DNA of 64,000 bases. Origin: Promethearchaeota archaeon. GTDB lineage: Archaea; Asgardarchaeota; Lokiarchaeia; Sigyniarchaeales; SOKP01. Numbering within the stretch: position 1 is the first letter of the stretch; each line of letters begins with the position of its first letter. Below are positions 28,379-40,105 of the stretch, piece after piece. Made by a program: the position numbers and the translations under genes. The notes beneath the pieces are model-generated. The model had not been told where the DNA came from. It was given only the letters and a program-made list of their open reading frames with translations, and did not search any database. The DNA is taken from positions 128,001 to 192,000 of the forward strand of contig JAEOUA010000001.1 of assembly GCA_016839555.1 (NCBI GenBank), in the 5' to 3' direction.

Positions 28379-29176
28379 ATGCAGGTATTTAAGATAAATG
28401 ACGATGGAACAACCACAGAACTAAAATCTAAAGGTCCAGTAAAAGATATTCTAGAAGAATCAGAATGTTATGTGCTTGTTGCAGACGGAATAAAAAAAGT
28501 ATATCTCTGGAAAGGACAGCAAAGTAGCGTTCGAAAAAAATTCATTGGTGCAAAAAGATCTCAGGAAATACGAGGACAAGTTGGCATGCATTACGCAGTC
28601 ACACCATTAGATCAAGGGGATGAGGATCTTGAATTTATTAAGCTTATTGGAGGCAAAACTACCGAAGGAATAGCTAAGGGTATTGATGAAAGCGACTTGG
28701 ATGAAAGGGCTACTGCTCCTATATCGAAATCTTCCTCTCCGCCAAGGATTAGCAGCTCCGGCGGAAATCAAGGACCTTTATACAGAGGAGCAGGATCTAT
28801 GCAAACCTTCACTGCAGATCAAACACAAATAGATTTTGAGAAAATTATGGAAAAATTAGACGAATCTGAATTGCCTCCTGGATTTGAAAGAGAATTAATT
28901 ATCATAGGCAACCATGCATATTCCGTAGTTGAAAAGGTCCAAACATTTTTAGGCAAAAAGCAAGTGGAAAAAGTGATGGAAAAAGTAGGAACTATCCCAG
29001 AGGGAATATTTTTTGCAAAGGATTATACACCAAGAATTTTCTCTGAAAATGGAAAAATAATGGCAATTGAATTTTTAAAACAAGTAGGGGGCGGTGCTAA
29101 TCCTTCGAAACAAATAAATAGAAAAAAAACGCTTGATGATCAAATAAAAAGCCAACTCATCAAGAAAAAGAAATAA
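28379..29176 (+). CDS. Single gelsolin-domain protein with a second C-terminal domain (Asgard 1DGelX-like)
   Basis: ECYVLV...KVYLWKGQQSSVRKKFIGAK...DQGDED.EF gelsolin signature, then a Ser/Pro linker and a second globular domain. Confidence 0.85.
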   Translation: MQVFKINDDGTTTELKSKGPVKDILEESECYVLVADGIKKVYLWKGQQSSVRKKFIGAKRSQEIRGQVGMHYAVTPLDQGDEDLEFIKLIGGKTTEGIAKGIDESDLDERATAPISKSSSPPRISSSGGNQGPLYRGAGSMQTFTADQTQIDFEKIMEKLDESELPPGFERELIIIGNHAYSVVEKVQTFLGKKQVEKVMEKVGTIPEGIFFAKDYTPRIFSENGKIMAIEFLKQVGGGANPSKQINRKKTLDDQIKSQLIKKKK

Positions 29177-29195
29177 ATGATCTGTGAGGTTCATT

Positions 29196-29585
29196 ATGTC
29201 TTTAACACCTGAAGAAGCAGAAGGCTTATCGAAGTTTTTAGGGAGTATCACAGAGCATTCTGAATTAGAGGCATTAGCATTAATTACTCGTGAGGGGTTG
29301 AGATTAGCTTTTTCTTCTGTACCTGGATATAATATTGATCCCGATTTATTTTCAAGCTTAAGTGCAGTGGTAGTCCAGTCGAGCACTGATGCCATTTCTA
29401 CTTTAGGTTATCATGACATGCTTGAAACCATTATACGCGGTGAAAATGCTTTCATTATCTTGAGTGATGCCGGAAGATTTTTATTAATGGGAGCTAGCCG
29501 CAAAATAGAAGACCTCGGGAAAATCGTATCAGTATTTCGCTATTATTCCGGTGAGATTCGTAAAAGATATCCTAAAATCGAATAA
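29196..29585 (+). CDS. Roadblock/LC7 (MglB-like) protein
   Basis: ALALITREGLRLA, DLFSSLSA, ETIIRGENAFIIL, LGKI. ATG at 29196 follows GTGAGG. Confidence 0.85.
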   Translation: MSLTPEEAEGLSKFLGSITEHSELEALALITREGLRLAFSSVPGYNIDPDLFSSLSAVVVQSSTDAISTLGYHDMLETIIRGENAFIILSDAGRFLLMGASRKIEDLGKIVSVFRYYSGEIRKRYPKIE

Positions 29586-29824: not shown

Positions 29825-30226
29825 ATGAAAGATGTGAGGATTGTTACATTTGATAATCGAGGACGTTTAGTGGTACCTAAAATAATACGAAAAAGCCTTG
29901 GATTAACAGAAGATACCCAATTAATGATGGTTGCCGATTCAGAAAGTAAAGAAATTCGGATCACTCCCGTAGCATTTGATTCAAGACAAAAACCCATAAA
30001 ATTAAAAATTAAAATTCAGGATGCACCAGGGAGCTTAGCAAAAATTGCTTCCACGTTCGGAAAATTAGGGATATCTTTAATGTATGGTGAATCTGCTGTG
30101 TTGGAGAAAGATAAAACAGCTATATGGACCGTTATCAGCCCTACTCCAAATATTTCTTTAGAGGAACTTAAAGAAAAGTTGATGAAAGAAGGAGGGGCGA
30201 TTGATATAGAAATAATATCACTTTAA
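29825..30226 (+). CDS. AbrB/MazE-type DNA-binding domain fused to ACT domain
   Basis: DNRGRLVVPKIIRKSLGL (AbrB) followed by IQDAPGSLAKIASTFGKLGISL (ACT). Confidence 0.88.
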   Translation: MKDVRIVTFDNRGRLVVPKIIRKSLGLTEDTQLMMVADSESKEIRITPVAFDSRQKPIKLKIKIQDAPGSLAKIASTFGKLGISLMYGESAVLEKDKTAIWTVISPTPNISLEELKEKLMKEGGAIDIEIISL

Positions 30227-30308
30227 TTAATAAGAATATTAGATAAACAAATTTATAAGAAGTTTTCTTTTTAATTATAATAATAATTTATATATTTTGT
30301 TGAGAATT

Positions 30309-30992
30309 ATGCCAAAAAAGAAAGAACAAAAAGAAGAGAGGGAATATTCATTAGAGGAAGCATTAAAATCCTCTCAAAAAACGGGAAGTGACTTACAGAA
30401 TTTTTTAAGTGCTTTATCTAAAGGAAAAGGATTTTATCAAGGAATTCAAAAACCAGAAGAAAAAAAAGAGCAAGAAAAAACAGATCCTCAGTTATCATAT
30501 GATGGAGAACCTTCTAAAAAGGCAGCAGAGGATTATATTATAGAGGATATTTCTATTTCAGAAAAAAAAACTAAAAGTGTTAAAAAGGAAGTAGATATTT
30601 CAAAAGAGGCAAAAGAGACAAAAAAAGATGAGGAATTACAAAAAATATCTATTTACAAGAAATTAAATGAATTTTTCCAGCAAGTCTTTGAAAATTATGA
30701 GATAAGATATAATAGATGGGAAGATTCTATAAATGCTTTAGTTTCTGTGTTACGAAAAATGAGAAAAGTCACCAAAGATAATACTCAACAATTAGTATCT
30801 GGTATTAAAAATATCTATGGGGAGATTAAAACAAATTTAGAGCAATTTAAAATAAAGCGGGATGAAATGGAGAAGGTTTCCGGTGTAAATATTGAAGAAA
30901 TGTCGAGAGAGTTCAAAAAATTGATTGGATTAATGAGCATCCAATTAAAGGAATATCAATTACGCAAATTAACAGATGAATTATTTTATTAG
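30309..30992 (+). CDS. Hypothetical protein: charged disordered N-half, helical/coiled-coil C-half
   Basis: K/E-rich sequence. ATG at 30309 lies within the ORF 30297..30992. Confidence 0.75.
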   Translation: MPKKKEQKEEREYSLEEALKSSQKTGSDLQNFLSALSKGKGFYQGIQKPEEKKEQEKTDPQLSYDGEPSKKAAEDYIIEDISISEKKTKSVKKEVDISKEAKETKKDEELQKISIYKKLNEFFQQVFENYEIRYNRWEDSINALVSVLRKMRKVTKDNTQQLVSGIKNIYGEIKTNLEQFKIKRDEMEKVSGVNIEEMSREFKKLIGLMSIQLKEYQLRKLTDELFY

Positions 30993-31076
30993 CTTTTATT
31001 CTACATTTCATTATATTAATATCTTAATTATATTTATTATTTCATTTCGTTTTTATATAACTATTATATATTAAAA

Positions 31077-32216
31077 ATGTCCTATGGAACTTCTAAATAT
31101 AGTAGAGCGCTTATTTTAGATATCGGAAGCAGTAATTTTCGAATGGGATGGGCGGGCTCAGATGACCCTGAAATTATAGAGTCTTTTATCTATGCTCGGA
31201 CTACAAATTTTCAATTTCAATCGGAATTTATTGATGGCTTTAAAGAAATTTTTTCTAATAAAATAGAGAATGATTATCTATTCGGAAGCGAAGCTTTAAG
31301 TTATCAAGGGATTTTAAAGCTAGAAGATCTTAACAGAGAAGAGAATCCAAATATTTTTATTAAATATTTTCTTCATCAATATCAGAAGCTAAACATTCCT
31401 TCTGAATTCCGATTTAAACAACATATAATTTTAATCGATCCATTTTTAATGAGTGATTTAGAAAAAGACAAATATAAAAAAATATTTTTTGAGCGTTTAA
31501 AATTTCCTTCATTATTATTTCTTCCTTCTGATATGGCAATACTCACGACGTTAAATAAAGTCGATGGAGTTATTGTCAATATAGGTGCAAAAAATACTTA
31601 TATATCTTCAGTTTATCATGGATTTACCGATTCAATGGCAAAAGATAGTGTTCCTATTGGTGGTCGAGAATTAACTAACTATTTTTTAAATATGATTTTG
31701 ACGGGGAAAGGAGCTAATAAAAATTTCTTTTTTGATTTTTGGATGGCTAAAAAAATAAAAGAAGAAATGGCATTATGTGTTTTACATCCAAAACAAGAAA
31801 GAAATAAAATTCAAGAAGATTTTATTGAATACGATAAAATAATACATTTACCAAATAAATATAGTTTTAAAATTAATTTTGAAAGGTTTATGTTAGTTGA
31901 ACCTCTATTTAACCCCCAATTAATCCATATTGACCATAGAAATATTATTGAAAGTATTGTAAAGACCGTTAAATTTTGGGAAAGAGAACAGAGACCTGAA
32001 TTATTATCAAACATTATTATATCAGGGGGAAGTAGTCAAATTCCTGGATTGAAAAAAAGGATAGAATTTGAATTAAAAAAACATTTTGCAGACAAATTGG
32101 AACCCGTGATAAAAGTAATTTCTCCTCAGAGTCGTGAGAATATGGCTTGGATTGGCGCTTCAATCTTATCTTCTCAAGGAAAATTAAAAGAAGGGCTCAA
32201 AAATCCTGATTTATAA
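31077..32216 (+). CDS. Divergent actin-family (actin-related) protein
   Basis: LILDIGSSNFRMGWAGSDDP, IGGRELTNY, IKEEMALC, ERFMLVEPLFNP, NIIISGGSSQIPGLKKRI, AWIGASILS match eukaryote-type actin motifs. Confidence 0.93.
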   Translation: MSYGTSKYSRALILDIGSSNFRMGWAGSDDPEIIESFIYARTTNFQFQSEFIDGFKEIFSNKIENDYLFGSEALSYQGILKLEDLNREENPNIFIKYFLHQYQKLNIPSEFRFKQHIILIDPFLMSDLEKDKYKKIFFERLKFPSLLFLPSDMAILTTLNKVDGVIVNIGAKNTYISSVYHGFTDSMAKDSVPIGGRELTNYFLNMILTGKGANKNFFFDFWMAKKIKEEMALCVLHPKQERNKIQEDFIEYDKIIHLPNKYSFKINFERFMLVEPLFNPQLIHIDHRNIIESIVKTVKFWEREQRPELLSNIIISGGSSQIPGLKKRIEFELKKHFADKLEPVIKVISPQSRENMAWIGASILSSQGKLKEGLKNPDL

Positions 32217-32292
32217 TAAAATATACTGATCTCTATATTTTGATAATTAATTACAAATTTGAAAGCATAATAAAAATAAAGGAAAAAAAAAA

Positions 32293-34866
32293 ATGTTGAG
32301 AAGCTTTAACCGTGAAGAAAGTTTCTTAAGCGATTTTCAAGAGCGATATCAGCAAGGAAAAGAATTACTTTCTCAAGGAGATCATCATTGGGCAACTCGC
32401 TTAATTGTTGACCTTTTTTTTCGTATAGAAAGTGAAGTTTGGATTTCCACTCAAAAAAAGCAACAATTAATTCTAAAATTATCAAAGCTCTGGATAAATT
32501 ATATTAATTCTCTTAAAATTAATGGAGAAATTACTGATCTAATTAAATATATTGATGCATATGATAGACTTTTTTCATTTCTTATTCAGATAGAAAATTA
32601 TAATATGTTTGAGATTTCTATTAACGAATTATTAAGAGTACTTGTGAAAATGGATGATTTACCAATCTCAAAAATCTCAAAATTTATTAACTCTATTTCT
32701 GTAAAATTTATCGAACAAGAAAACTATATTGAATTAATTGAAATACAATTTTTGTTAATTTTTCTTCAAGATTCAATTGTTCATGTAATATATTTTCATG
32801 AAATAATGGATTATTTATCTCAAATAATGAAAAAAATTGAACCATCCAAAAGAACACTATTTTTATATATGATCTTAGAAAATGTGAATATTAAATTTGA
32901 TCTTAGAGTGGATATTAAAGATTTTGTAGAAAATATAGGTAAAAAAGTAATCCATTTGGTCTTCCCTCAATTAAAAGAATATTTTAGTGTTCTCAATACA
33001 ATTGTCATAAACGAGCGAACATTTAATTCTATTAAAGATGATTTAATCAATTTATTTTCTTATTTAAATAATATTGGTGAATCTTCTTGGACAATAGTTA
33101 TTATTAGAAATCTTTTCTTTTATATTAATCAATTTGAATCATTTGAGGCTGCAATAGAACAAATTCATCAATTCATTGAATTTTCAATTGATAGAAGTCG
33201 GTTAAATGTTGTTTACACCACCTATGATTATCTAGAATCCATTTTATTGACGCAATCAAAGGAGCAATATCATAATAAATTAATTGAATTATGGGCTGAT
33301 GCTTGTAATAATTTTGCTAATATGAAACAAAAAGATTTTTTGTTGTTGGCTATTGAAAGATTGGTTGAATATCTACAAATTCCTGAAAATAAATCAAATA
33401 TATTCCATTACTTACATTCTTGTAATTATTTATGGAAATTTAGATCAATTTTCTTCTCCTTTAAAGAACAAGATTTTTGGAGGATGATTTTTTATAGAGC
33501 GCTTTACCAAGAAGGTAGTATAAATCTTGCCAAAAAAATCATTCCTTTTTTAAATAAGAATCTCCAAGCCTTCGTGCAAGATTGTGAATCCTTATATAAT
33601 AAAGCTCTTGCAGTAAAAAATGAGATCTATACTCTCGAAGAGAAGAAAGATTATTATCTTCAACAAAAAAACCATCATATTGTAAATATGGTTATCAAAA
33701 TTAATTCCATTGGTGAATTCTCATATCGGATTTATTATTCCGATGAAAATATATTAGAAAGCACCTTTAGAAAAGAACATTGGAATGATACATATATTGT
33801 CAAAATATATAATGATCTATTTTTTAATAACGATGGAAAAAGCTATAATTTTAATTTAAAGGAATTTGGAAAAATATTATATCTTTTACTTCCAAAAGAA
33901 ATTCGAGATTATTTTTCTCAATTTAGAACTCAAGTTCTAAGACCTCAAATTTATTTTGTTTTTGATAAAATGACTATTCCCTTTGAATTTATTTATAAAG
34001 AAGGATTTTTTTTATTTGCCTATTCTATCGGGTATAATATAGGTGCCCCCCTCATTATGGGAGCAAAATTCTTAATAGAAAAAGAACATTCTCAAAAAAT
34101 TACAACAGATCATGGATCAGAAGCATTATTAATAGATTCAATTAACGCTTTAGCTCCAAAACATTGGCAGGAAGATGAAAATAGAAAGAAATTATTATAT
34201 GAATTTCCATCAGGAGCCAATGAATTAAACTATATTAAAGAACTATTTGATAATAGACCTGAAATTCAGAATTTAAAAGTATTATTAGGTTCTGAAAGTA
34301 CGAAAGGAACAATTTTAGAAGAAATATCTCAAGGTAATTACCATATAATCTATTTTGTAGGAAATATAATTTTTTCAGAATCTCATCCAAGTTATAGTTA
34401 TTTTATCACAAATGATGAATCTATCCTGAAATTTATAGATCTATTTAATGCGTTGGAAACTCAAGAGAAAAAAGTAAAGCCAATTTTATTCTTCGATACC
34501 CAAATGTTTGATAGAAAAGGAAATAGATTAAAAGAAGCATTAGGATTTTTCTCTGAGATTATTTCAGAATTAAATTTTAATAATGTTAAGGGAGTTATTT
34601 GTAGAAACTATACCGATTTTAATATAGATACCAAAAAAATAATTTCAGAGTTTTTTAACAATCTTCTTGAAAAAAACAGCTTAGGTATTTCTTTGCTTAA
34701 AGCTCGTGAAACTCTTCTACCGAAAATACCAAAACTAATTAAGAAGCAATTGGATGGAGAAAATCCCGTAGATCCAGACATTGATAAAAGTAAACATGTT
34801 AATATTGAGAATAGTCAAAAGTTTTTGAGTTTTCTATTATTTGGTGAGCCATGGAATAAAATATAG
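32293..34866 (+). CDS. Large helical-repeat protein with C-terminal CHAT (caspase/HetF)-like domain lacking the catalytic His/Cys
   Basis: LKEFGKILYLLLP, IPFEFI, ANELNYI, TKGTIL..I...YHIIYFVGN, LFFDTQ, FF..L....SLGISLLKAR and FLLFGEP follow the CHAT motif order. Confidence 0.75.
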   Translation: MLRSFNREESFLSDFQERYQQGKELLSQGDHHWATRLIVDLFFRIESEVWISTQKKQQLILKLSKLWINYINSLKINGEITDLIKYIDAYDRLFSFLIQIENYNMFEISINELLRVLVKMDDLPISKISKFINSISVKFIEQENYIELIEIQFLLIFLQDSIVHVIYFHEIMDYLSQIMKKIEPSKRTLFLYMILENVNIKFDLRVDIKDFVENIGKKVIHLVFPQLKEYFSVLNTIVINERTFNSIKDDLINLFSYLNNIGESSWTIVIIRNLFFYINQFESFEAAIEQIHQFIEFSIDRSRLNVVYTTYDYLESILLTQSKEQYHNKLIELWADACNNFANMKQKDFLLLAIERLVEYLQIPENKSNIFHYLHSCNYLWKFRSIFFSFKEQDFWRMIFYRALYQEGSINLAKKIIPFLNKNLQAFVQDCESLYNKALAVKNEIYTLEEKKDYYLQQKNHHIVNMVIKINSIGEFSYRIYYSDENILESTFRKEHWNDTYIVKIYNDLFFNNDGKSYNFNLKEFGKILYLLLPKEIRDYFSQFRTQVLRPQIYFVFDKMTIPFEFIYKEGFFLFAYSIGYNIGAPLIMGAKFLIEKEHSQKITTDHGSEALLIDSINALAPKHWQEDENRKKLLYEFPSGANELNYIKELFDNRPEIQNLKVLLGSESTKGTILEEISQGNYHIIYFVGNIIFSESHPSYSYFITNDESILKFIDLFNALETQEKKVKPILFFDTQMFDRKGNRLKEALGFFSEIISELNFNNVKGVICRNYTDFNIDTKKIISEFFNNLLEKNSLGISLLKARETLLPKIPKLIKKQLDGENPVDPDIDKSKHVNIENSQKFLSFLLFGEPWNKI

Positions 34867-34986
34867 CCATATCATTCTAAAGTTTTAATATCATAAACAA
34901 ATATTGTTTATAATTATTAAAAATAACTTTAAATATAATTTATTTATTCTATTAATATAGAATCATAAAAGGAGTAAAGAAAAAAA

Positions 34987-35511
34987 TTGTCTGACAGATT
35001 ATTAGAACTCAGAATCGAAAATCAGAAATTAAAAAATCAAGTTGAACAATTAGAAAATAAAATATTATCGTTGGTAGGAAATATTGAAATTGAAGTATCA
35101 CAAAAAGGTTTATTAAATGAAGAGATATTAATTTTATTTGAAAATACAGAAAAAAATTTAAATATTTTAACGCCTTATATCGATAAATTCTATAATAATG
35201 AGCTAAAAAGATTAAGCCAAAAAGGTATTAATATATTGGTTATTATTCATGATAGAAGTTTAATTCCTAATAAATATAGAATATTTTATGATGAATTAAA
35301 AACAAAATCAAACATTCATATTGTAAATAATCCAAATATAAAATGTCTTGTAATATTTAATGAAAAAAATGGTATTTATTCTGGAGGCGCTCTGGATAAA
35401 GATGTATTAGATAAATCAATTTTAATTGAAACTAAAATAAATGAAGCAACTAAACTCTATAAAATCAAGCAAATCTATAATCTTTTCCTCCCATCATTTA
35501 TGAGAAAATAG
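34987..35511 (+). CDS. Coiled coil plus PLD-like domain lacking the HKD motif
   Basis: EKNLNILTPYID, KGINILVI, NIKCLVIFNEKNGIYSGGAL (in place of HxKxxxxD...GSxN). Confidence 0.7.
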   Translation: MSDRLLELRIENQKLKNQVEQLENKILSLVGNIEIEVSQKGLLNEEILILFENTEKNLNILTPYIDKFYNNELKRLSQKGINILVIIHDRSLIPNKYRIFYDELKTKSNIHIVNNPNIKCLVIFNEKNGIYSGGALDKDVLDKSILIETKINEATKLYKIKQIYNLFLPSFMRK

Positions 35512-36268: not shown

Positions 36269-39244
36269 TTATTCCAAAAGATATTCCTTTATTATTTTTA
36301 GCCCTTTAACACCTTTTAAAATCTTAAGTCCAAGTTTTCTTATGTTATCATGTTCCTCCTTAATTAATCTTCGAATTGTAGACATTTTCAATTCTTCTCC
36401 TGAATTAGCTAATTCCTCTATTTTAATTGAACATTGCTTAGCGAACCTTGCTATTTCTTTTTGGTCTTTACTACTAGAAAATTTTGGAATATTAAAATAT
36501 AATGGTCGCTTATGATGATGTCTAGTATCGCTTATGGTTTTAGTACTTTTATAAAGTTTTTTGATATTAAGCATGCCACATAAATAATATGCTTCTTCTT
36601 CAATATCAGTTCCATAATAGTATAAAGTTGAATCTACAAAAATTATACCTTTAGGATCTTCTATAACTGCTGCCATAAGAGATTTTGCATTTGGAAAAAC
36701 AATTTTATATTTTTTTCTTTGCTCTTTTCTTACTTTACCATTTTTACATAATTTATTTCGATAATTTATCCCAATATCATAGAGATTATATTTATTTTCC
36801 TCTCTATATATCTTTTTTATCTTATTCCAATGTTTTCTACTATATGGACCAATTTTTTCTGGTTTATATTCAAGATTTTTATTTAAGGGTAGAAATATAT
36901 CATAAAGTTTTATATAATAAGGGAATAAACCTCTAGACAAGGTTGCCTTAAATAAATTTTCAGTCTCTACTCTTTCTCTGCTGAAATGTTTGTTTTTCCA
37001 AAAACCTTTTGCTTGAGGAGAAATCCAAGGTTCAATAATGGAGATTCTTCCATTCTCAGTTTGATCTAATATTTCTACATACAATAAAGATTTTGGTATC
37101 ATATCTGCTCCTTGAATAAATTCGGAATAATATTCAGAAAGACTAAAAGGAAGTAATTCATCTTTTTGCTCAGGTCTAATTAATTTTTTTATAAGATATT
37201 TTTCTCCTCTTTGAGGTTCAAAATATGCGTAAGGAGTAAGTTCAAATTTTTTTTGTTTTTCCATTATTTGGGCATCAAAATATGTACATTTAGCAGGATA
37301 TTTTTCAAATACATCTCGCCGACGAGCAATTTCAGTAATAAAACTACCAAAAAAGCAACAACAATCTATATTAAATACTAAGTCATTGAACTCAAAAAAT
37401 TCAATATCTTTAAAAATGTCGAATCTTCGGGCTTTTTGATTTTGAGATGAAACTAATAAAGATCGTGGCATTACAAAACCAACTCTTCCTTTTCCATCTC
37501 TTCTTAAATATAAATTCGGTATTTTATACAAAAATATGATTGCTTCTTCAATATTTGTAACATTATGAGCTCCGGGTTTGATATTATATTGTTCAGAAAT
37601 TTTTTTCATATCATTACGTAATTTTATATCTGCATCTTTATATGTAAGCCAAGGAGGATTAGTAATAATTAAGTCCATCTTTTTCTGTAATAATAAGGAT
37701 CTAATACCAACAAGATTATTAAGAATATATAACCAGATATGATCTTTTTCTTGAGCTTTTAATTCGAATAATTCTTCAAAAAATTCTAAAATTGGGTGCC
37801 TAATCTTGGATTGATCACTTAGAAAGGAGTTATCAAAATTAATTGAAATTCTTGCTAAAGCAGCTTCCCAAACATCATCAAAATTATGAAAATCTTCCCA
37901 GACATTATATATTGATCTAACTAGTTTCTGAAAAAGTTCTATGTTTTTCTCAGTTAAAACATCACCAGGTATTCGTAATTCTATTTCATCTCCAAGTAAA
38001 TCAACACAAAAACTATAAAACTTCCCAAGTTGGACATCTTGAGTTGGTGAAAATTGAAGAGGATCGATTGAATTGCATAAAAAAACATTAATAGAAATCT
38101 TTTCAATCCATTTCCGATGGGATTTTAAATATAATAATATGTTTGCTTTAGAAGTAAGAATGGCAATAGGATTAATATCAAATCCAAAAATATTATTTAC
38201 AGCTTCAAACCATTCATTTGGGGGTTTTTTATCTGAAAATGATATATTATCATCGATTTTTTTAAGGATTTCAATAAGAAATGTTCCAGATCCACATGAT
38301 GAGTCTAATACACGCATTCCTAATTTATATTCTTTTTCAACCATTTTTTTACATAATCGTTCAGGAGTATAATATTCTCCTAATCGATGTCTAACACCAG
38401 CAATAATCATTTCTTGATAAATTGCTCTAAAAATGTCGGTAGCTTTAAACTCCATGGTTTTCATTTTGTTAAAAAATTCATCGCATAACCCTTCTACATT
38501 TATTACCCATCTAAAAAAATCATAATGAAATAATGAAATTCCTAATAATTCAAAATAATTTTCCAATCCTTTAAAAGAATCTCTGGAATATTCACCTGGT
38601 TCCATGAATTCTTGATAAAGAATTAATTTCAATAACATGCTCAGATAAGAATGTCTAAAGAATAACTCTTTTCCAACATCTTCATCATGATAAGCTAATG
38701 AAAAGTGTTTTTTCCATTGTTGAAAGCAAACTGTCTTTTCCCCATTTCGTTCTATAAAATGGTTCTCCAAGCGTGAATATGCTAATATATACATAGGAGA
38801 ATTTATTCCAAATAAAATAGCAAATTGTTCAGAATCTATGATCTTTGGACCTAAAACACTTTCAATTAAAGATATTATCGTTTTTTCATTAATATCTCGT
38901 TTATTCTGTATTACTAATTCTTTATTGAAATAATAAATATATTTTTCTGAAATTACTATTAGAAGATTTGGATATTTACCACGAGTGGAAAAATATTCAT
39001 TAATATATTGTGTACCCTTTGTTTTGACCCATTTTTCTAAGTCTTTCTCAGTTATGTTATATTTATAATCAATGATTACATCACCAATTAAACAATCAGG
39101 TCTTCCTTCTAAGACTCTCTCTTGAGCTTGATATTCTAATTCCAATCTATCAAATATACTGTCAAACCAATGCTCTATATCAAATTCTTTCGTTGCTTTG
39201 TTTAATTGGGTTAAATCCATTTCAATGTCTTTAAGTATAATCAT
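36269..39244 (-). CDS. Fused restriction-modification enzyme (Type IIG/IIC-like, N6-adenine MTase)
   Basis: N-terminal RPDCLIGDVIIDYK (PD-(D/E)xK), LGEYYTP, VLDSSCGSGTFL, GFDINP, NPPW, and a C-terminal TRD-like region. Confidence 0.88.
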   Translation of the reverse strand: MIILKDIEMDLTQLNKATKEFDIEHWFDSIFDRLELEYQAQERVLEGRPDCLIGDVIIDYKYNITEKDLEKWVKTKGTQYINEYFSTRGKYPNLLIVISEKYIYYFNKELVIQNKRDINEKTIISLIESVLGPKIIDSEQFAILFGINSPMYILAYSRLENHFIERNGEKTVCFQQWKKHFSLAYHDEDVGKELFFRHSYLSMLLKLILYQEFMEPGEYSRDSFKGLENYFELLGISLFHYDFFRWVINVEGLCDEFFNKMKTMEFKATDIFRAIYQEMIIAGVRHRLGEYYTPERLCKKMVEKEYKLGMRVLDSSCGSGTFLIEILKKIDDNISFSDKKPPNEWFEAVNNIFGFDINPIAILTSKANILLYLKSHRKWIEKISINVFLCNSIDPLQFSPTQDVQLGKFYSFCVDLLGDEIELRIPGDVLTEKNIELFQKLVRSIYNVWEDFHNFDDVWEAALARISINFDNSFLSDQSKIRHPILEFFEELFELKAQEKDHIWLYILNNLVGIRSLLLQKKMDLIITNPPWLTYKDADIKLRNDMKKISEQYNIKPGAHNVTNIEEAIIFLYKIPNLYLRRDGKGRVGFVMPRSLLVSSQNQKARRFDIFKDIEFFEFNDLVFNIDCCCFFGSFITEIARRRDVFEKYPAKCTYFDAQIMEKQKKFELTPYAYFEPQRGEKYLIKKLIRPEQKDELLPFSLSEYYSEFIQGADMIPKSLLYVEILDQTENGRISIIEPWISPQAKGFWKNKHFSRERVETENLFKATLSRGLFPYYIKLYDIFLPLNKNLEYKPEKIGPYSRKHWNKIKKIYREENKYNLYDIGINYRNKLCKNGKVRKEQRKKYKIVFPNAKSLMAAVIEDPKGIIFVDSTLYYYGTDIEEEAYYLCGMLNIKKLYKSTKTISDTRHHHKRPLYFNIPKFSSSKDQKEIARFAKQCSIKIEELANSGEELKMSTIRRLIKEEHDNIRKLGLKILKGVKGLKIIKEYLLE

Positions 39245-39499: not shown

Positions 39500-40105
39500 A
39501 TGCCCAGCCGGCGTGGAGATGGAACACTCGTTTTCAAGATATGTTTTTATGGTCCCAGCCTTGGCGGTAAAACAACTGCCTTAGAGTGGGTTTATAATAA
39601 AGAAGGCCTTGCTAGCGGAGACATGCAGCAAATTGCGGATCCTACTGGAAGGACACTCTTTTTTGACAGGGTTGTGGCTAAGGTAAGCAATGTTGTTTTT
39701 CAAGTTTACACTGTTGCCGGTCAGCGTAGGCATAAATTTCAGAGGCAAACTGTTTTAAAAGGTACAGATGCCATAATTTTTGTGTGGGATAGTTTAATTG
39801 ACCAATGGGAAGAAAATATCTGGTCTTTGAAAGAATTATTACGATTTTATGGGAAAAAACTAATTTCGTCCAAACCAGGGGATCCACCCGAGGTTCCTAT
39901 GGTAGTAATGGCGAATAAGCGCGATTTAGATGATATAATAAAGGTAGATAAAGTTCGAGAAGCTTTAAATACAGCACATCTAGATGATACCTTAGTCTAT
40001 GAGACAATAGCGATCACCGGTGCAAATGTCAAGCGTGCATTTGTCTTTGCATCCCGACAAGCCGTTCTGAACCACTATAAAAAGCTTTCAGGGGAAGTTT
40101 CTTAG
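39500..40105 (+). CDS. MglA-like small GTPase
   Basis: KICFYGPSLGGKTT (G1), GRTLFFD (MglA switch I with Arg), YTVAGQ (G3), NKRD (G4), TIAITG (G5). Confidence 0.92.
   Translation: MPSRRGDGTLVFKICFYGPSLGGKTTALEWVYNKEGLASGDMQQIADPTGRTLFFDRVVAKVSNVVFQVYTVAGQRRHKFQRQTVLKGTDAIIFVWDSLIDQWEENIWSLKELLRFYGKKLISSKPGDPPEVPMVVMANKRDLDDIIKVDKVREALNTAHLDDTLVYETIAITGANVKRAFVFASRQAVLNHYKKLSGEVS

What the first reader, a model, noticed from the sequence alone, without database searches (positions are those of the whole stretch)
31077..32216. Actin-related protein with altered nucleotide-hydrolysis motifs
Seen by manual alignment to actin: phosphate-1 DNGSGMCK becomes DIGSSNFR; phosphate-2 DSGDGVTH becomes NIGAKNTY (Asp and His161 lost); the Q137 segment IQAVLSL becomes PSDMAIL. 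The D-loop region is longer and the actin C-terminal tail is absent. Inference: this is not the conserved filament-forming Lokiactin but an ARP-like, possibly hydrolysis-poor subunit of a complex.
Basis: partly seen in the sequence, partly recalled or inferred. Interest (0 to 1): 0.7.

Follow-up and report, generated by a model that had tools for sequence, protein, structure and literature searches.

The report
Divergent Asgard actin-related protein, partner-bound
This gene encodes a fast-evolving actin relative of Loki-type Asgard archaea that has lost actin's ATP-splitting residues and is always encoded next to, and is predicted to dock onto, a separase-like protein with a dead protease site, which gives a testable partner for an archaeal actin relative of unknown function.

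Summary
Its motifs read DIGSSNFR, PSDMAIL and NIGAKNTY. The D-loop region is 9-11 residues longer than in actin and the C-terminal tail is missing.

It is not Lokiactin. The genome has two true Lokiactins, and the AU test rejects grouping with them (p 0.0004). Lokiactin stays 87-97% identical across genomes in which this protein drops to 29-54%. The gene is still under purifying selection (dN/dS 0.09-0.14).

The family belongs to a well-supported clade of one Lokiarchaeial order. Every member examined lies in the cassette helical protein – ARP – ~860-aa TPR-solenoid/dead-CHAT protein – ~174-aa protein. ARP and CHAT genes are present together or absent together.

A complex prediction passed (0.68; best control 0.00). 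It places the extended D-loop segment on the solenoid's N-terminus, so the pointed end would be capped.

The glycine loops and the adenosine-contacting Lys-Glu are conserved, so nucleotide binding is probably kept. Poor hydrolysis is inferred only.

The scan has found this same module before on other genomes. I found no paper describing it.

The parts
31077..32216 (+). Actin-related protein gene (379 aa, P0001)
   Evidence: ORF. Pfam Actin 151 bits. AF2 model pLDDT 82 with an actin fold, Z 38.1. dN/dS 0.09-0.14.
31119..31142 (+). Phosphate-1 loop DIGSSNFR (actin D11-K18)
   Evidence: In the family: D 37/43, G17 invariant, R22 in 40/43.
31200..31265 (+). Extended D-loop segment (residues 42-63), the predicted docking element for the solenoid protein
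   Evidence: Insertion of 9-11 residues. Residues 42 and 45-63 are in the predicted interface. G54 is invariant and F47, S49, I52 are at least 93% conserved in the family.
31302..31316 (+). YQGIL (residues 76-80), second element of the predicted interface, next to the shortened sensor loop
   Evidence: Y76, I79 and L80 are invariant. Contacts have the lowest expected error. The sensor loop has a 3-residue deletion.
31524..31544 (+). PSDMAIL: the actin Q137 position is S151
   Evidence: The family has E at 151 in 29/43 and S in 7/43.
31578..31601 (+). Phosphate-2 loop NIGAKNTY (D154N, D157A, G158K, H161Y)
   Evidence: In the family: N 36/43; G170 invariant; E 36/43 at 171 (A in 5, including the window); Y/F 28/43 at 175.
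32022..32036 (+). SGGSS loop (actin G301-G302-T303), conserved nucleotide-binding glycines
   Evidence: G317 and G318 are invariant.
32148..32216 (+). Truncated C-terminus: ends ...SQGKLKEGLKNPDL, with no actin C-terminal helix
30297..30992 (+). Upstream cassette gene: Lys-rich, disordered N-terminus plus a conserved ~110-aa helical C-terminal domain (231 aa)
   Evidence: Homologues stand beside the ARP, directly upstream in most loci and after the ~860-aa gene in L016. Alignments A4/A5. No Pfam family.
32293..34866 (+). Downstream cassette gene: 857-aa TPR-like solenoid (1-445) plus CHAT-like domain (about 550-857) without the His-Cys dyad; predicted partner of the ARP
   Evidence: Pfam CHAT 27 bits. 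Model pLDDT 85. Foldseek hits Csx29 TPR-CHAT at E 4e-11, DdvA and separase. N691 stands in place of His and there is no Cys. Adjacent to the ARP in all genomes compared.
32341..32706 (+). Solenoid residues 17-138: predicted ARP-binding surface
   Evidence: These residues are more conserved than the rest of residues 1-450 (0.66 against 0.59; 343 of 20000 random subsets reach it).
34987..35511 (+). Fourth cassette gene, 174 aa (short coiled coil plus a possible PLD-like fold)
   Evidence: Homologues follow the ~860-aa gene in L009, L011-L015 and L017-L021; none was found in L016, where the helical-protein gene follows instead. Atlas lead to PLD-like clusters at 0.88-0.89, a lead only.
29825..30226 (+). 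AbrB/SpoVT-ACT protein (133 aa), joined to the cassette in the window's own taxonomic family and in G130 only
   Evidence: Pfam ACT and MazE_antitoxin at the cut-offs. Homologues in L009, L011-L013 and L019.

Best explanation
The gene encodes a divergent actin-related protein specific to one order of Lokiarchaeia.

Proposed mechanism:
- It keeps the actin fold and probably still binds a nucleotide.
- It has lost the residues that couple ATP hydrolysis to polymerisation in actin: the equivalents of Q137, D154 and H161, the H73 sensor loop and the C-terminal helix.
- It does not act as a self-polymerising filament protein. It is a stoichiometric subunit of a complex encoded by its own operon.
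- Its enlarged D-loop segment (residues 45-63), residues 76-80 and two subdomain-4 loops (218, 258-262) dock onto the N-terminal helices of the next gene's product, an ~860-aa TPR-like solenoid fused to a catalytically dead CHAT (caspase/separase-like) domain.
- This caps the ARP's pointed-end face and leaves the barbed-end face free for a further partner.
- The nucleotide would then serve as a structural cofactor or slow switch.

Shown: family membership, fold, motif changes, purifying selection, a clade separate from Lokiactin, cassette conservation and co-occurrence.
Predicted by model: the interface.
Inferred: weak ATPase, no homopolymer, the role of the free barbed end.
For: Identity and fold:
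- Pfam Actin 151 bits.
- Actin fold with Z 38.1, rmsd 2.0 over 336 residues, and TM 0.80-0.86.

Not Lokiactin:
- Six actin-family genes in the genome. Two are Lokiactin-type and 27% identical to this one.
- A 20-row clade is split from the Lokiactins, eukaryotic actin and Arp1 with SH-aLRT 98 on each side of the midpoint root, one unrooted split (FastTree 100).
- AU p 0.0004.
- Between the same genomes Lokiactin is 87-97% identical and this ARP 29-54%.

Functional gene: dN/dS 0.09-0.14; 35 invariant columns among 43 homologues.

Active site:
- N at D154 in 36/43 and no His at H161.
- Window subclade: S151, A171.
- G17, G170, G317, G318 and K228 are invariant; E229 is 35/43 E and 8/43 D.

Complex:
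- The cassette helical protein – ARP – ~860 aa – ~174 aa is found in four loci at 48-53% ARP identity.
- It is also found in sister-clade loci at 27-33% identity. L016 has the order ARP – ~860 aa – helical protein, with no 174-aa homologue found.
- From the ARP stop to the ~860-aa start there are 0-36 nt, or the genes overlap, in most loci.
- In all 30 genomes whose coordinates I compared, the two genes are neighbours on one strand.
- In the window's taxonomic family, by my count from the two tables, about 113 genomes have both and 15 have neither. Seven of those 15 are 92-99% complete. The 6 discordant cases are fragments or lie at contig ends.
- Complex prediction: score 0.68, best of 3 controls 0.00. 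That mark was reached by 58 of 80 solved complexes and 2 of 110 mismatched pairs. The runs agree in at least 89% of contacts and partner pLDDT is at least 82.
- The interface uses the clade-specific insert and solenoid residues that are more conserved than their surroundings.
Against: - No experiment bears on it. The interface is a model's own confidence, and the calibration counts hold only roughly for a three-chain job with my own alignments.
- ARP interface residues are no more conserved than the rest of the protein (0.693 against 0.692).
- Most family members carry Glu at the Q137 position (29/43) and Glu at the D157 position (36/43). MreB and Hsp70-type actin-fold ATPases use a Glu there (established knowledge), so the family as a whole may hydrolyse ATP. 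Only the window's small subclade lacks both.
- Gene neighbourhood among related genomes partly reflects shared descent.
- Nothing here excludes that the free protein also polymerises.
Confidence: 0.55

Rival explanations
1. It is a scaffolded nucleator or anchor for Lokiactin filaments. The solenoid holds the ARP by its pointed end, so the exposed barbed-end face templates or caps a Lokiactin filament, analogous in logic to Arp2/3 or the dynactin pointed-end complex. This is a specific extension of the main explanation.
For: The predicted interface is confined to the pointed-end elements (D-loop, 76-80, 218, 258-262), which leaves subdomains 1 and 3 free. The genome has Lokiactins, a weak gelsolin-like gene and a Roadblock gene a few genes upstream.
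Against: - The barbed-end groove is altered: Y143 becomes T157, G146 becomes N160, and the C-terminal helix is absent.
- The published Lokiactin co-immunoprecipitation in L. ossiferum reports profilin, gelsolins and an Arf GTPase, and no ARP (PMC13716822).
- I made no direct test.
Confidence: 0.15
2. It is an independent filament-forming actin paralogue, a second cytoskeletal polymer like crenactin or bacterial ParM/MreB. It would use alternative catalytic residues, and its operon neighbours would be regulators rather than stable partners, as arcadin-2 is for crenactin.
For: - Full actin fold with all four subdomains.
- Glu at the Q137 position in 29/43 family members.
- Precedent of the crenactin 'arcade' cluster, whose arcadin-2 binds the hydrophobic groove (PMC5173319).
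Against: - In the window protein both candidate catalytic positions are lost (S151, M153), together with D154, D157 and H161.
- The D-loop, the main longitudinal contact in actin-like filaments, is predicted to be buried in the solenoid.
- The sequence evolves far faster than the filament-former Lokiactin.
Confidence: 0.2
3. It is a decaying or functionless duplicate of actin whose motif changes are simply degeneration.
For: Loss of several catalytic residues; low Pfam score relative to its paralogues.
Against: - Intact frame in more than 110 genomes.
- dN/dS 0.09-0.14 even inside the most degenerate subclade.
- 35 invariant columns.
- Conserved cassette.
Confidence: 0.02

Closest known systems
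Asgard actin-related proteins other than Lokiactin ('asgardactins'; the three non-Lokiactin homologues of Ca. Lokiarchaeum ossiferum; PMC9834061, PMC8850707)
   Same: Same protein family and same organisms. The closed 6,035,313-bp genome G138 has four actin-family genes, as reported for L. ossiferum. One of them is the sister-clade ARP in the same cassette. The paper's RT-qPCR shows Lokiactin transcripts severalfold higher than those of the other three homologues.
   Different: The papers place these proteins in trees only. I found no paper that describes their partners, the cassette or the catalytic-site changes.
Lokiactin / eukaryotic actin
   Same: Same fold (Z 38.1, TM up to 0.86). Conserved glycine phosphate loops and the Lys-Glu that contact the adenosine in actin.
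   Different: - 25-28% identity.
- Q137, D154, D157, H161 and the H73 sensor loop are changed.
- The D-loop is 9-11 residues longer and the C-terminal helix is missing.
- Separate clade (AU p 0.0004).
- About ten times more sequence divergence across the same genomes.
Eukaryotic ARPs that act as non-polymerising subunits of scaffolded complexes (Arp2/3 complex; Arp4, Arp5, Arp8 and Arp7/9 on HSA helices; Arp11 in dynactin)
   Same: An actin-fold protein with a diverged active site and insertions that is held by a helical scaffold. Structural similarity Z 29-35. Variable or absent ATPase in nuclear ARPs (established knowledge).
   Different: - No orthology shown. Arp1 is in my trees and does not group with it, and the other classes were not sampled by sequence.
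- The partner, a TPR solenoid with dead CHAT, has no counterpart in those complexes.
- The predicted contact is through the pointed end, not the barbed-end groove that binds HSA helices (established knowledge).
Crenactin 'arcade' cluster (crenactin plus arcadins; PMC5173319)
   Same: An archaeal actin homologue encoded in a conserved cluster with lineage-specific partner proteins that bind it.
   Different: Crenactin is a bona fide filament former, and arcadin-2 binds its hydrophobic groove as a depolymeriser. Here the active site is degenerate, the partners are unrelated to arcadins, and the predicted contact is at the D-loop.
TPR-CHAT proteases (Csx29/Craspase), DdvA and separase (for the partner protein)
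   Same: Helical solenoid followed by a caspase-like CHAT domain (Foldseek E 4e-11 to 1e-7, probability 1.0).
   Different: Global TM is only 0.22-0.27. The catalytic His is Asn (N691, nearly invariant) and the Cys is absent in the whole family. There is no CRISPR or cohesin context.

Membership tests
Actin family (Pfam PF00022) | Profile match above the curated cut-off | tested here: met
   151.4 bits against a cut-off of 27, E 3.5e-44.
Actin family (Pfam PF00022) | Four-subdomain actin fold | tested here: met
   AF2 pLDDT 82. Actin Z 38.1, rmsd 2.0, 336 residues aligned. TM 0.80-0.86.
Actin family (Pfam PF00022) | Nucleotide-binding glycine loops and adenosine-contacting Lys-Glu | tested here: met
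   G17, G170, G317, G318 and K228 are invariant; E229 is E or D in all 43. Actual nucleotide binding was not tested.
Canonical actin ATPase (polymerisation-coupled hydrolysis) | Q137, D154 and H161 around the attacking water; H73 sensor loop | tested here: not met
   S151, N168 and Y175; the sensor loop is shortened and lacks His. The enzymatic consequence is not testable here.
Lokiactin | Membership of the Lokiactin clade (sister of eukaryotic actin) | tested here: not met
   Separate clade (SH-aLRT 98). AU p 0.0004 against a joint clade with the genome's own Lokiactins.
Lokiactin | Very high conservation and presence across Asgard lineages | tested here: not met
   29-54% identity where Lokiactin keeps 87-97%. 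Family-level matches occur only in families f1-f3 of one order.
A named eukaryotic ARP class (Arp1 to Arp10) | Orthologous grouping with that class in a phylogeny | tested here: inconclusive
   Arp1/centractin rows (labelled) do not group with it. Arp2, Arp3 and the nuclear ARPs could not be fetched as named sequences. By PDB sequence score, actin (100-109 bits), Arp2 (97) and Arp1 (92) are about equidistant.
Lokiarchaeial ARP / dead-CHAT cassette (the module seen by this scan) | ARP directly upstream of an ~860-aa solenoid-CHAT gene, with the helical-protein and ~174-aa genes alongside | tested here: met
   Window order 30297-35511. The same order is found in L009, L011-L015 and L017-L021. 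L016 differs: the helical-protein gene follows the ~860-aa gene and no 174-aa homologue was found.
Lokiarchaeial ARP / dead-CHAT cassette (the module seen by this scan) | Physical ARP-solenoid complex | tested here: inconclusive
   The model supports binding: 0.68 against best control 0.00; 58 of 80 solved complexes and 2 of 110 mismatched pairs reach the mark. A prediction is not a measurement.

The most novel reading that the evidence does not exclude
The ARP, held by its pointed end on a separase-like pseudo-protease scaffold, is the core of a previously undescribed archaeal machine. Its free barbed-end face would nucleate, cap or anchor Lokiactin filaments. This would be an Arp2/3-independent, scaffolded actin nucleator that arose in Lokiarchaeia.
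Probability: 0.12. Interest if true: 0.9.

Novelty: new variant of a known kind. Interest (0 to 1): 0.62.

Why it matters
Asgard archaea carry several actin relatives besides Lokiactin, and none has a known function or partner. This family has three useful properties:
- a clearly degenerate hydrolysis site;
- a lineage-specific insert;
- a concrete, residue-level predicted partner, a TPR-like solenoid with a dead CHAT domain.

The module also appears to be present in a cultured strain (probably Ca. L. ossiferum). It would therefore be possible to test whether scaffold-bound, non-polymerising ARPs, a hallmark of eukaryotic Arp2/3, dynactin and chromatin remodellers, also arose in archaea. If the complex touches Lokiactin filaments, it bears on how regulated actin networks evolved.

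Tried and rejected
- **Helical C-terminal domain of the upstream protein (residues 118-231) as an ARP binder.** It was in the complex job. It does not appear among the confident contacts, and with the solenoid replaced the score was 0.00. That is no support, which is not evidence against binding.
- **Naming eukaryotic ARP classes in the tree.** Only actin, Arp1/centractin and some unassigned protist ARPs could be labelled. Arp2/3 and the nuclear ARPs were not retrievable as sequences, so a specific eukaryotic affinity stays untested.
- **Alternative register placing family Q153 on actin Q137.** The model's strand/helix boundary and the ungapped HMMER alignment favour S151 = Q137.
- **Interface-conservation test on the ARP side.** No enrichment.
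- **Pseudogene reading.** Rejected.
- **Gelsolin annotation of the 265-aa upstream gene.** Only a sub-threshold Pfam hit (E 0.016).
- **Literature searches** for the cassette (Asgard + CHAT + actin; ARP + neighbourhood) found nothing relevant.

Full report
**1. The observation**

The ORF 31077-32216 (+) encodes 379 aa and is the only long frame there. It matches Pfam Actin at 151 bits, E 3.5e-44. The three quoted motifs are at residues 15-22 (DIGSSNFR), 150-156 (PSDMAIL) and 168-175 (NIGAKNTY).

The HMMER alignment to yeast actin and MAFFT alignments to this genome's own Lokiactins give these equivalences:

| Actin | This protein |
|---|---|
| D11 | D15 |
| G13 | G17 |
| K18 | R22 |
| Q137 | S151 |
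| D154 | N168 |
| G156 | G170 |
| D157 | A171 |
| G158 | K172 |
| H161 | Y175 |

- The AF2 model has a strand at 145-150 and a helix from 151.
- The D-loop region is 9-11 residues longer than in Lokiactin and yeast actin.
- The protein stops soon after the last core helix, so the actin C-terminal helix is missing.
- The sensor loop that holds H73 in actin is three residues shorter and unrelated in sequence.

**2. It is a real, selected gene of a discrete family**

- A word-indexed search found 70 homologues at 45-88% identity. All are from Loki-type Asgard metagenome bins, whatever label the bins carry.
- In a library clustered at 50% identity, the family collapses to one full-length representative (384 bits). 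The next hit has 183 bits and 28% identity.
- dN/dS against the two closest orthologues is 0.09-0.14.
- Among 43 members, 35 columns are invariant.

**3. It is not Lokiactin**

The genome (3.74 Mb, 12 contigs) has six actin-family genes:
- two Lokiactin-type (447 and 427 Pfam bits);
- one of 284 bits;
- one of 228 bits with a zinc-ribbon insert, just outside the window;
- this one (151 bits);
- a 317-aa one.

This protein is 27% identical to the Lokiactins.

Trees:
- A FastTree of 118 rows and an IQ-TREE LG+C20 tree of 55 rows both place the family (support 100) with three sister groups in a 20-row clade.
- That clade is split from everything else sampled with SH-aLRT 98 on each side of the midpoint root, that is, one unrooted split.
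- "Everything else" includes the Lokiactins, eukaryotic actins, Arp1/centractin and other Asgard ARPs, labelled through.
- Forcing the family together with the genome's Lokiactins costs 85 log-likelihood units (AU p 0.0004).

Across the same five genomes Lokiactin is 87-97% identical and this ARP 29-54%.

The fold is still closest to eukaryotic actin (Foldseek TM 0.80-0.86):

| Structure | Z |
|---|---|
| Eukaryotic actin | 38.1 (rmsd 2.0) |
| Eukaryotic Arps | 29-35 |
| Crenactin | 31.5 |
| MreB | 25 |

**4. The nucleotide site across the family**

Kept:
- G17, G170, G317, G318 and K228 are invariant.
- E229 is E or D throughout.
- D15 is D in 37/43 and R22 is R in 40/43.

Changed family-wide:
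- D154 is N in 36/43.
- H161 is Y, F, N, T or S.

Changed mainly in the window's subclade:
- The Q137 position is E in 29/43 members but S here.
- The D157 position is E in 36/43 but A here.

My reading is that nucleotide binding is probably retained. Hydrolysis is probably weak in the window protein and is uncertain for the family as a whole. Both statements are inferences.

**5. The genomic context is a conserved cassette**

The window order is:
- YjeF-type gene;
- 265-aa gene (sub-threshold gelsolin hit);
- Roadblock/LC7;
- AbrB-ACT;
- 231-aa helical protein;
- ARP;
- 857-aa protein;
- 174-aa protein.

The same order holds in four loci with 48-53% ARP identity. Unrelated genes are inserted only between the Roadblock and AbrB-ACT genes.

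The core is helical protein – ARP – ~860 aa – ~174 aa. It also holds in the sister groups at 27-33% ARP identity, with one variant: in L016 the order is ARP – ~860 aa – helical protein, and no 174-aa homologue was found. It holds as well in genomes G130, G138 and G143. The ARP stop and the ~860-aa start are 0-36 nt apart or overlap in most loci (76 nt in the window).

Genome survey of 400 genomes of the phylum:
- The 857-aa family is found in 117 of 134 genomes of the window's family, 1 of 1 in a second family and 7 of 14 in a third, all of the same order.
- Elsewhere there are only weak partial hits in three genomes of the same class, with this single-sequence query.
- Family-level or sister-level ARP matches have the same distribution.
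- In all 30 genomes whose coordinates I compared, the two genes are adjacent on one strand.
- In the window's family I count about 113 genomes with both and 15 with neither. Seven of those 15 are 92-99% complete.
- The 6 discordant cases are all fragments or contig ends.
- Related genomes are not independent, but co-absence occurs in at least five genera.

G138 is a closed 6,035,313-bp genome with four actin-family genes. This fits Ca. Lokiarchaeum ossiferum (PMC9834061). A closed 4.4-Mb genome (G135) lacks both genes.

**6. The partner**

- The 857-aa model (pLDDT 85) is an α-solenoid (1-445), a small β domain and a CHAT-like α/β domain.
- Foldseek finds Csx29 TPR-CHAT (E 4e-11), the anti-sigma factor DdvA and separases. 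Global TM is low, 0.22-0.27.
- The catalytic His is Asn (N691, nearly invariant) and no Cys stands at the nucleophile position in the family.

**7. Predicted complex**

I folded the solenoid (1-450), the helical domain of the upstream protein (118-231) and the ARP as the scored partner, each with its alignment.

- The score is 0.68 and the best of three controls is 0.00.
- That mark was reached by 58 of 80 solved complexes and 2 of 110 mismatched pairs.
- The runs agree in at least 89% of contacts, and partner pLDDT is at least 82.
- These counts hold only roughly for this three-chain job with my own alignments.
- I know of no solved complex resembling this pair, so a pass from memory is unlikely.
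- Confident contacts join ARP residues 42, 45-63, 76-80, 218 and 258-262 to solenoid residues 17-40, 83-98 and 117-138.

The insert is shared by the whole 20-row clade and is longest in the window's family. It contains invariant G54, Y76, I79 and L80.

The solenoid interface is more conserved than the rest of the N-terminal half (0.66 against 0.59; 343 of 20000 random subsets reach it). The ARP interface is only as conserved as the protein average.

**8. Reading**

A nucleotide-binding ARP that has probably lost efficient hydrolysis is clamped by its pointed end onto a dead-protease scaffold. The two small proteins are likely further members of the complex.

- A D-loop buried in a partner would block the canonical longitudinal filament contact.
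- The barbed-end face is free but altered: Y143 becomes T, G146 becomes N, and there is no C-terminal helix. A role in nucleating or capping Lokiactin is therefore possible but unsupported.
- The published Lokiactin co-IP lists profilin, gelsolins and an Arf GTPase, and no ARP (PMC13716822).

**9. Novelty**

- Asgard ARPs are known as tree leaves (PMC9834061; five 'asgardactin' clades in PMC8850707).
- I found no paper on this cassette or on the partner.
- This scan has already met the same module on several other genomes, and follow-up agents reached the same reading.

Noticed in passing
G000:C4:193254-194750 (locus L004:1477-2979), about 1.25 kb past the window's end: A 500-aa actin-family paralogue (Pfam 228 bits) carries an insertion of about 110 residues near the C-terminus with four CxxC pairs, which looks like zinc ribbons. 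Homologues of 509-560 aa exist in G130, G138, G143, G188 and G274.
   Followed up: partly
locus L006:1492-2445 (G000 contig C3): A 317-aa actin-like paralogue (112 Pfam bits) lacks about 60 residues of subdomain 4. It has the longest branch in the trees.
   Followed up: no
window 32293-34866: The 857-aa solenoid plus CHAT-like protein has no catalytic dyad (IYFVGNI in place of the His motif; FFDTQ in place of the Cys motif), and this holds family-wide. Its architecture resembles Csx29, DdvA and separase.
   Followed up: yes
window 34987-35511: The 174-aa protein has an N-terminal coiled coil and no Pfam family. The language-model atlas points to PLD-like clusters at 0.88-0.89, which is a lead only.
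   Followed up: partly
window 28379-29585: A 265-aa protein with a sub-threshold gelsolin-repeat hit (E 0.016) is followed 8 nt later by a Roadblock/LC7 protein (26 bits). The pair is syntenic in the window's taxonomic family but is separated from the ARP cassette by variable insertions (VWA protein, IS605/TnpB, others).
   Followed up: partly
window 36269-39244 (-) and 39500-40105 (+): A 991-aa MmeI/Eco57I-type methylase-restriction gene lies on the opposite strand here but on the cassette's strand in the other loci. It is followed by an Arf/Ras-like small GTPase that also recurs downstream in L011, L012 and L020.
   Followed up: no
locus L017:7700-8791 (-) (G138): In the closed 6.04-Mb genome the cassette ARP frame is open for 363 codons, but the first ATG/GTG/TTG leaves only 307 aa and cuts off the phosphate-1 loop. 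Either a non-canonical start codon is used or the annotation there is too short.
   Followed up: no
The genome search tables: Fifteen genomes of the window's own taxonomic family lack both the ARP and the 857-aa gene. Seven of them are 92-99% complete. The module is therefore dispensable and has been lost repeatedly, as a unit.
   Followed up: partly
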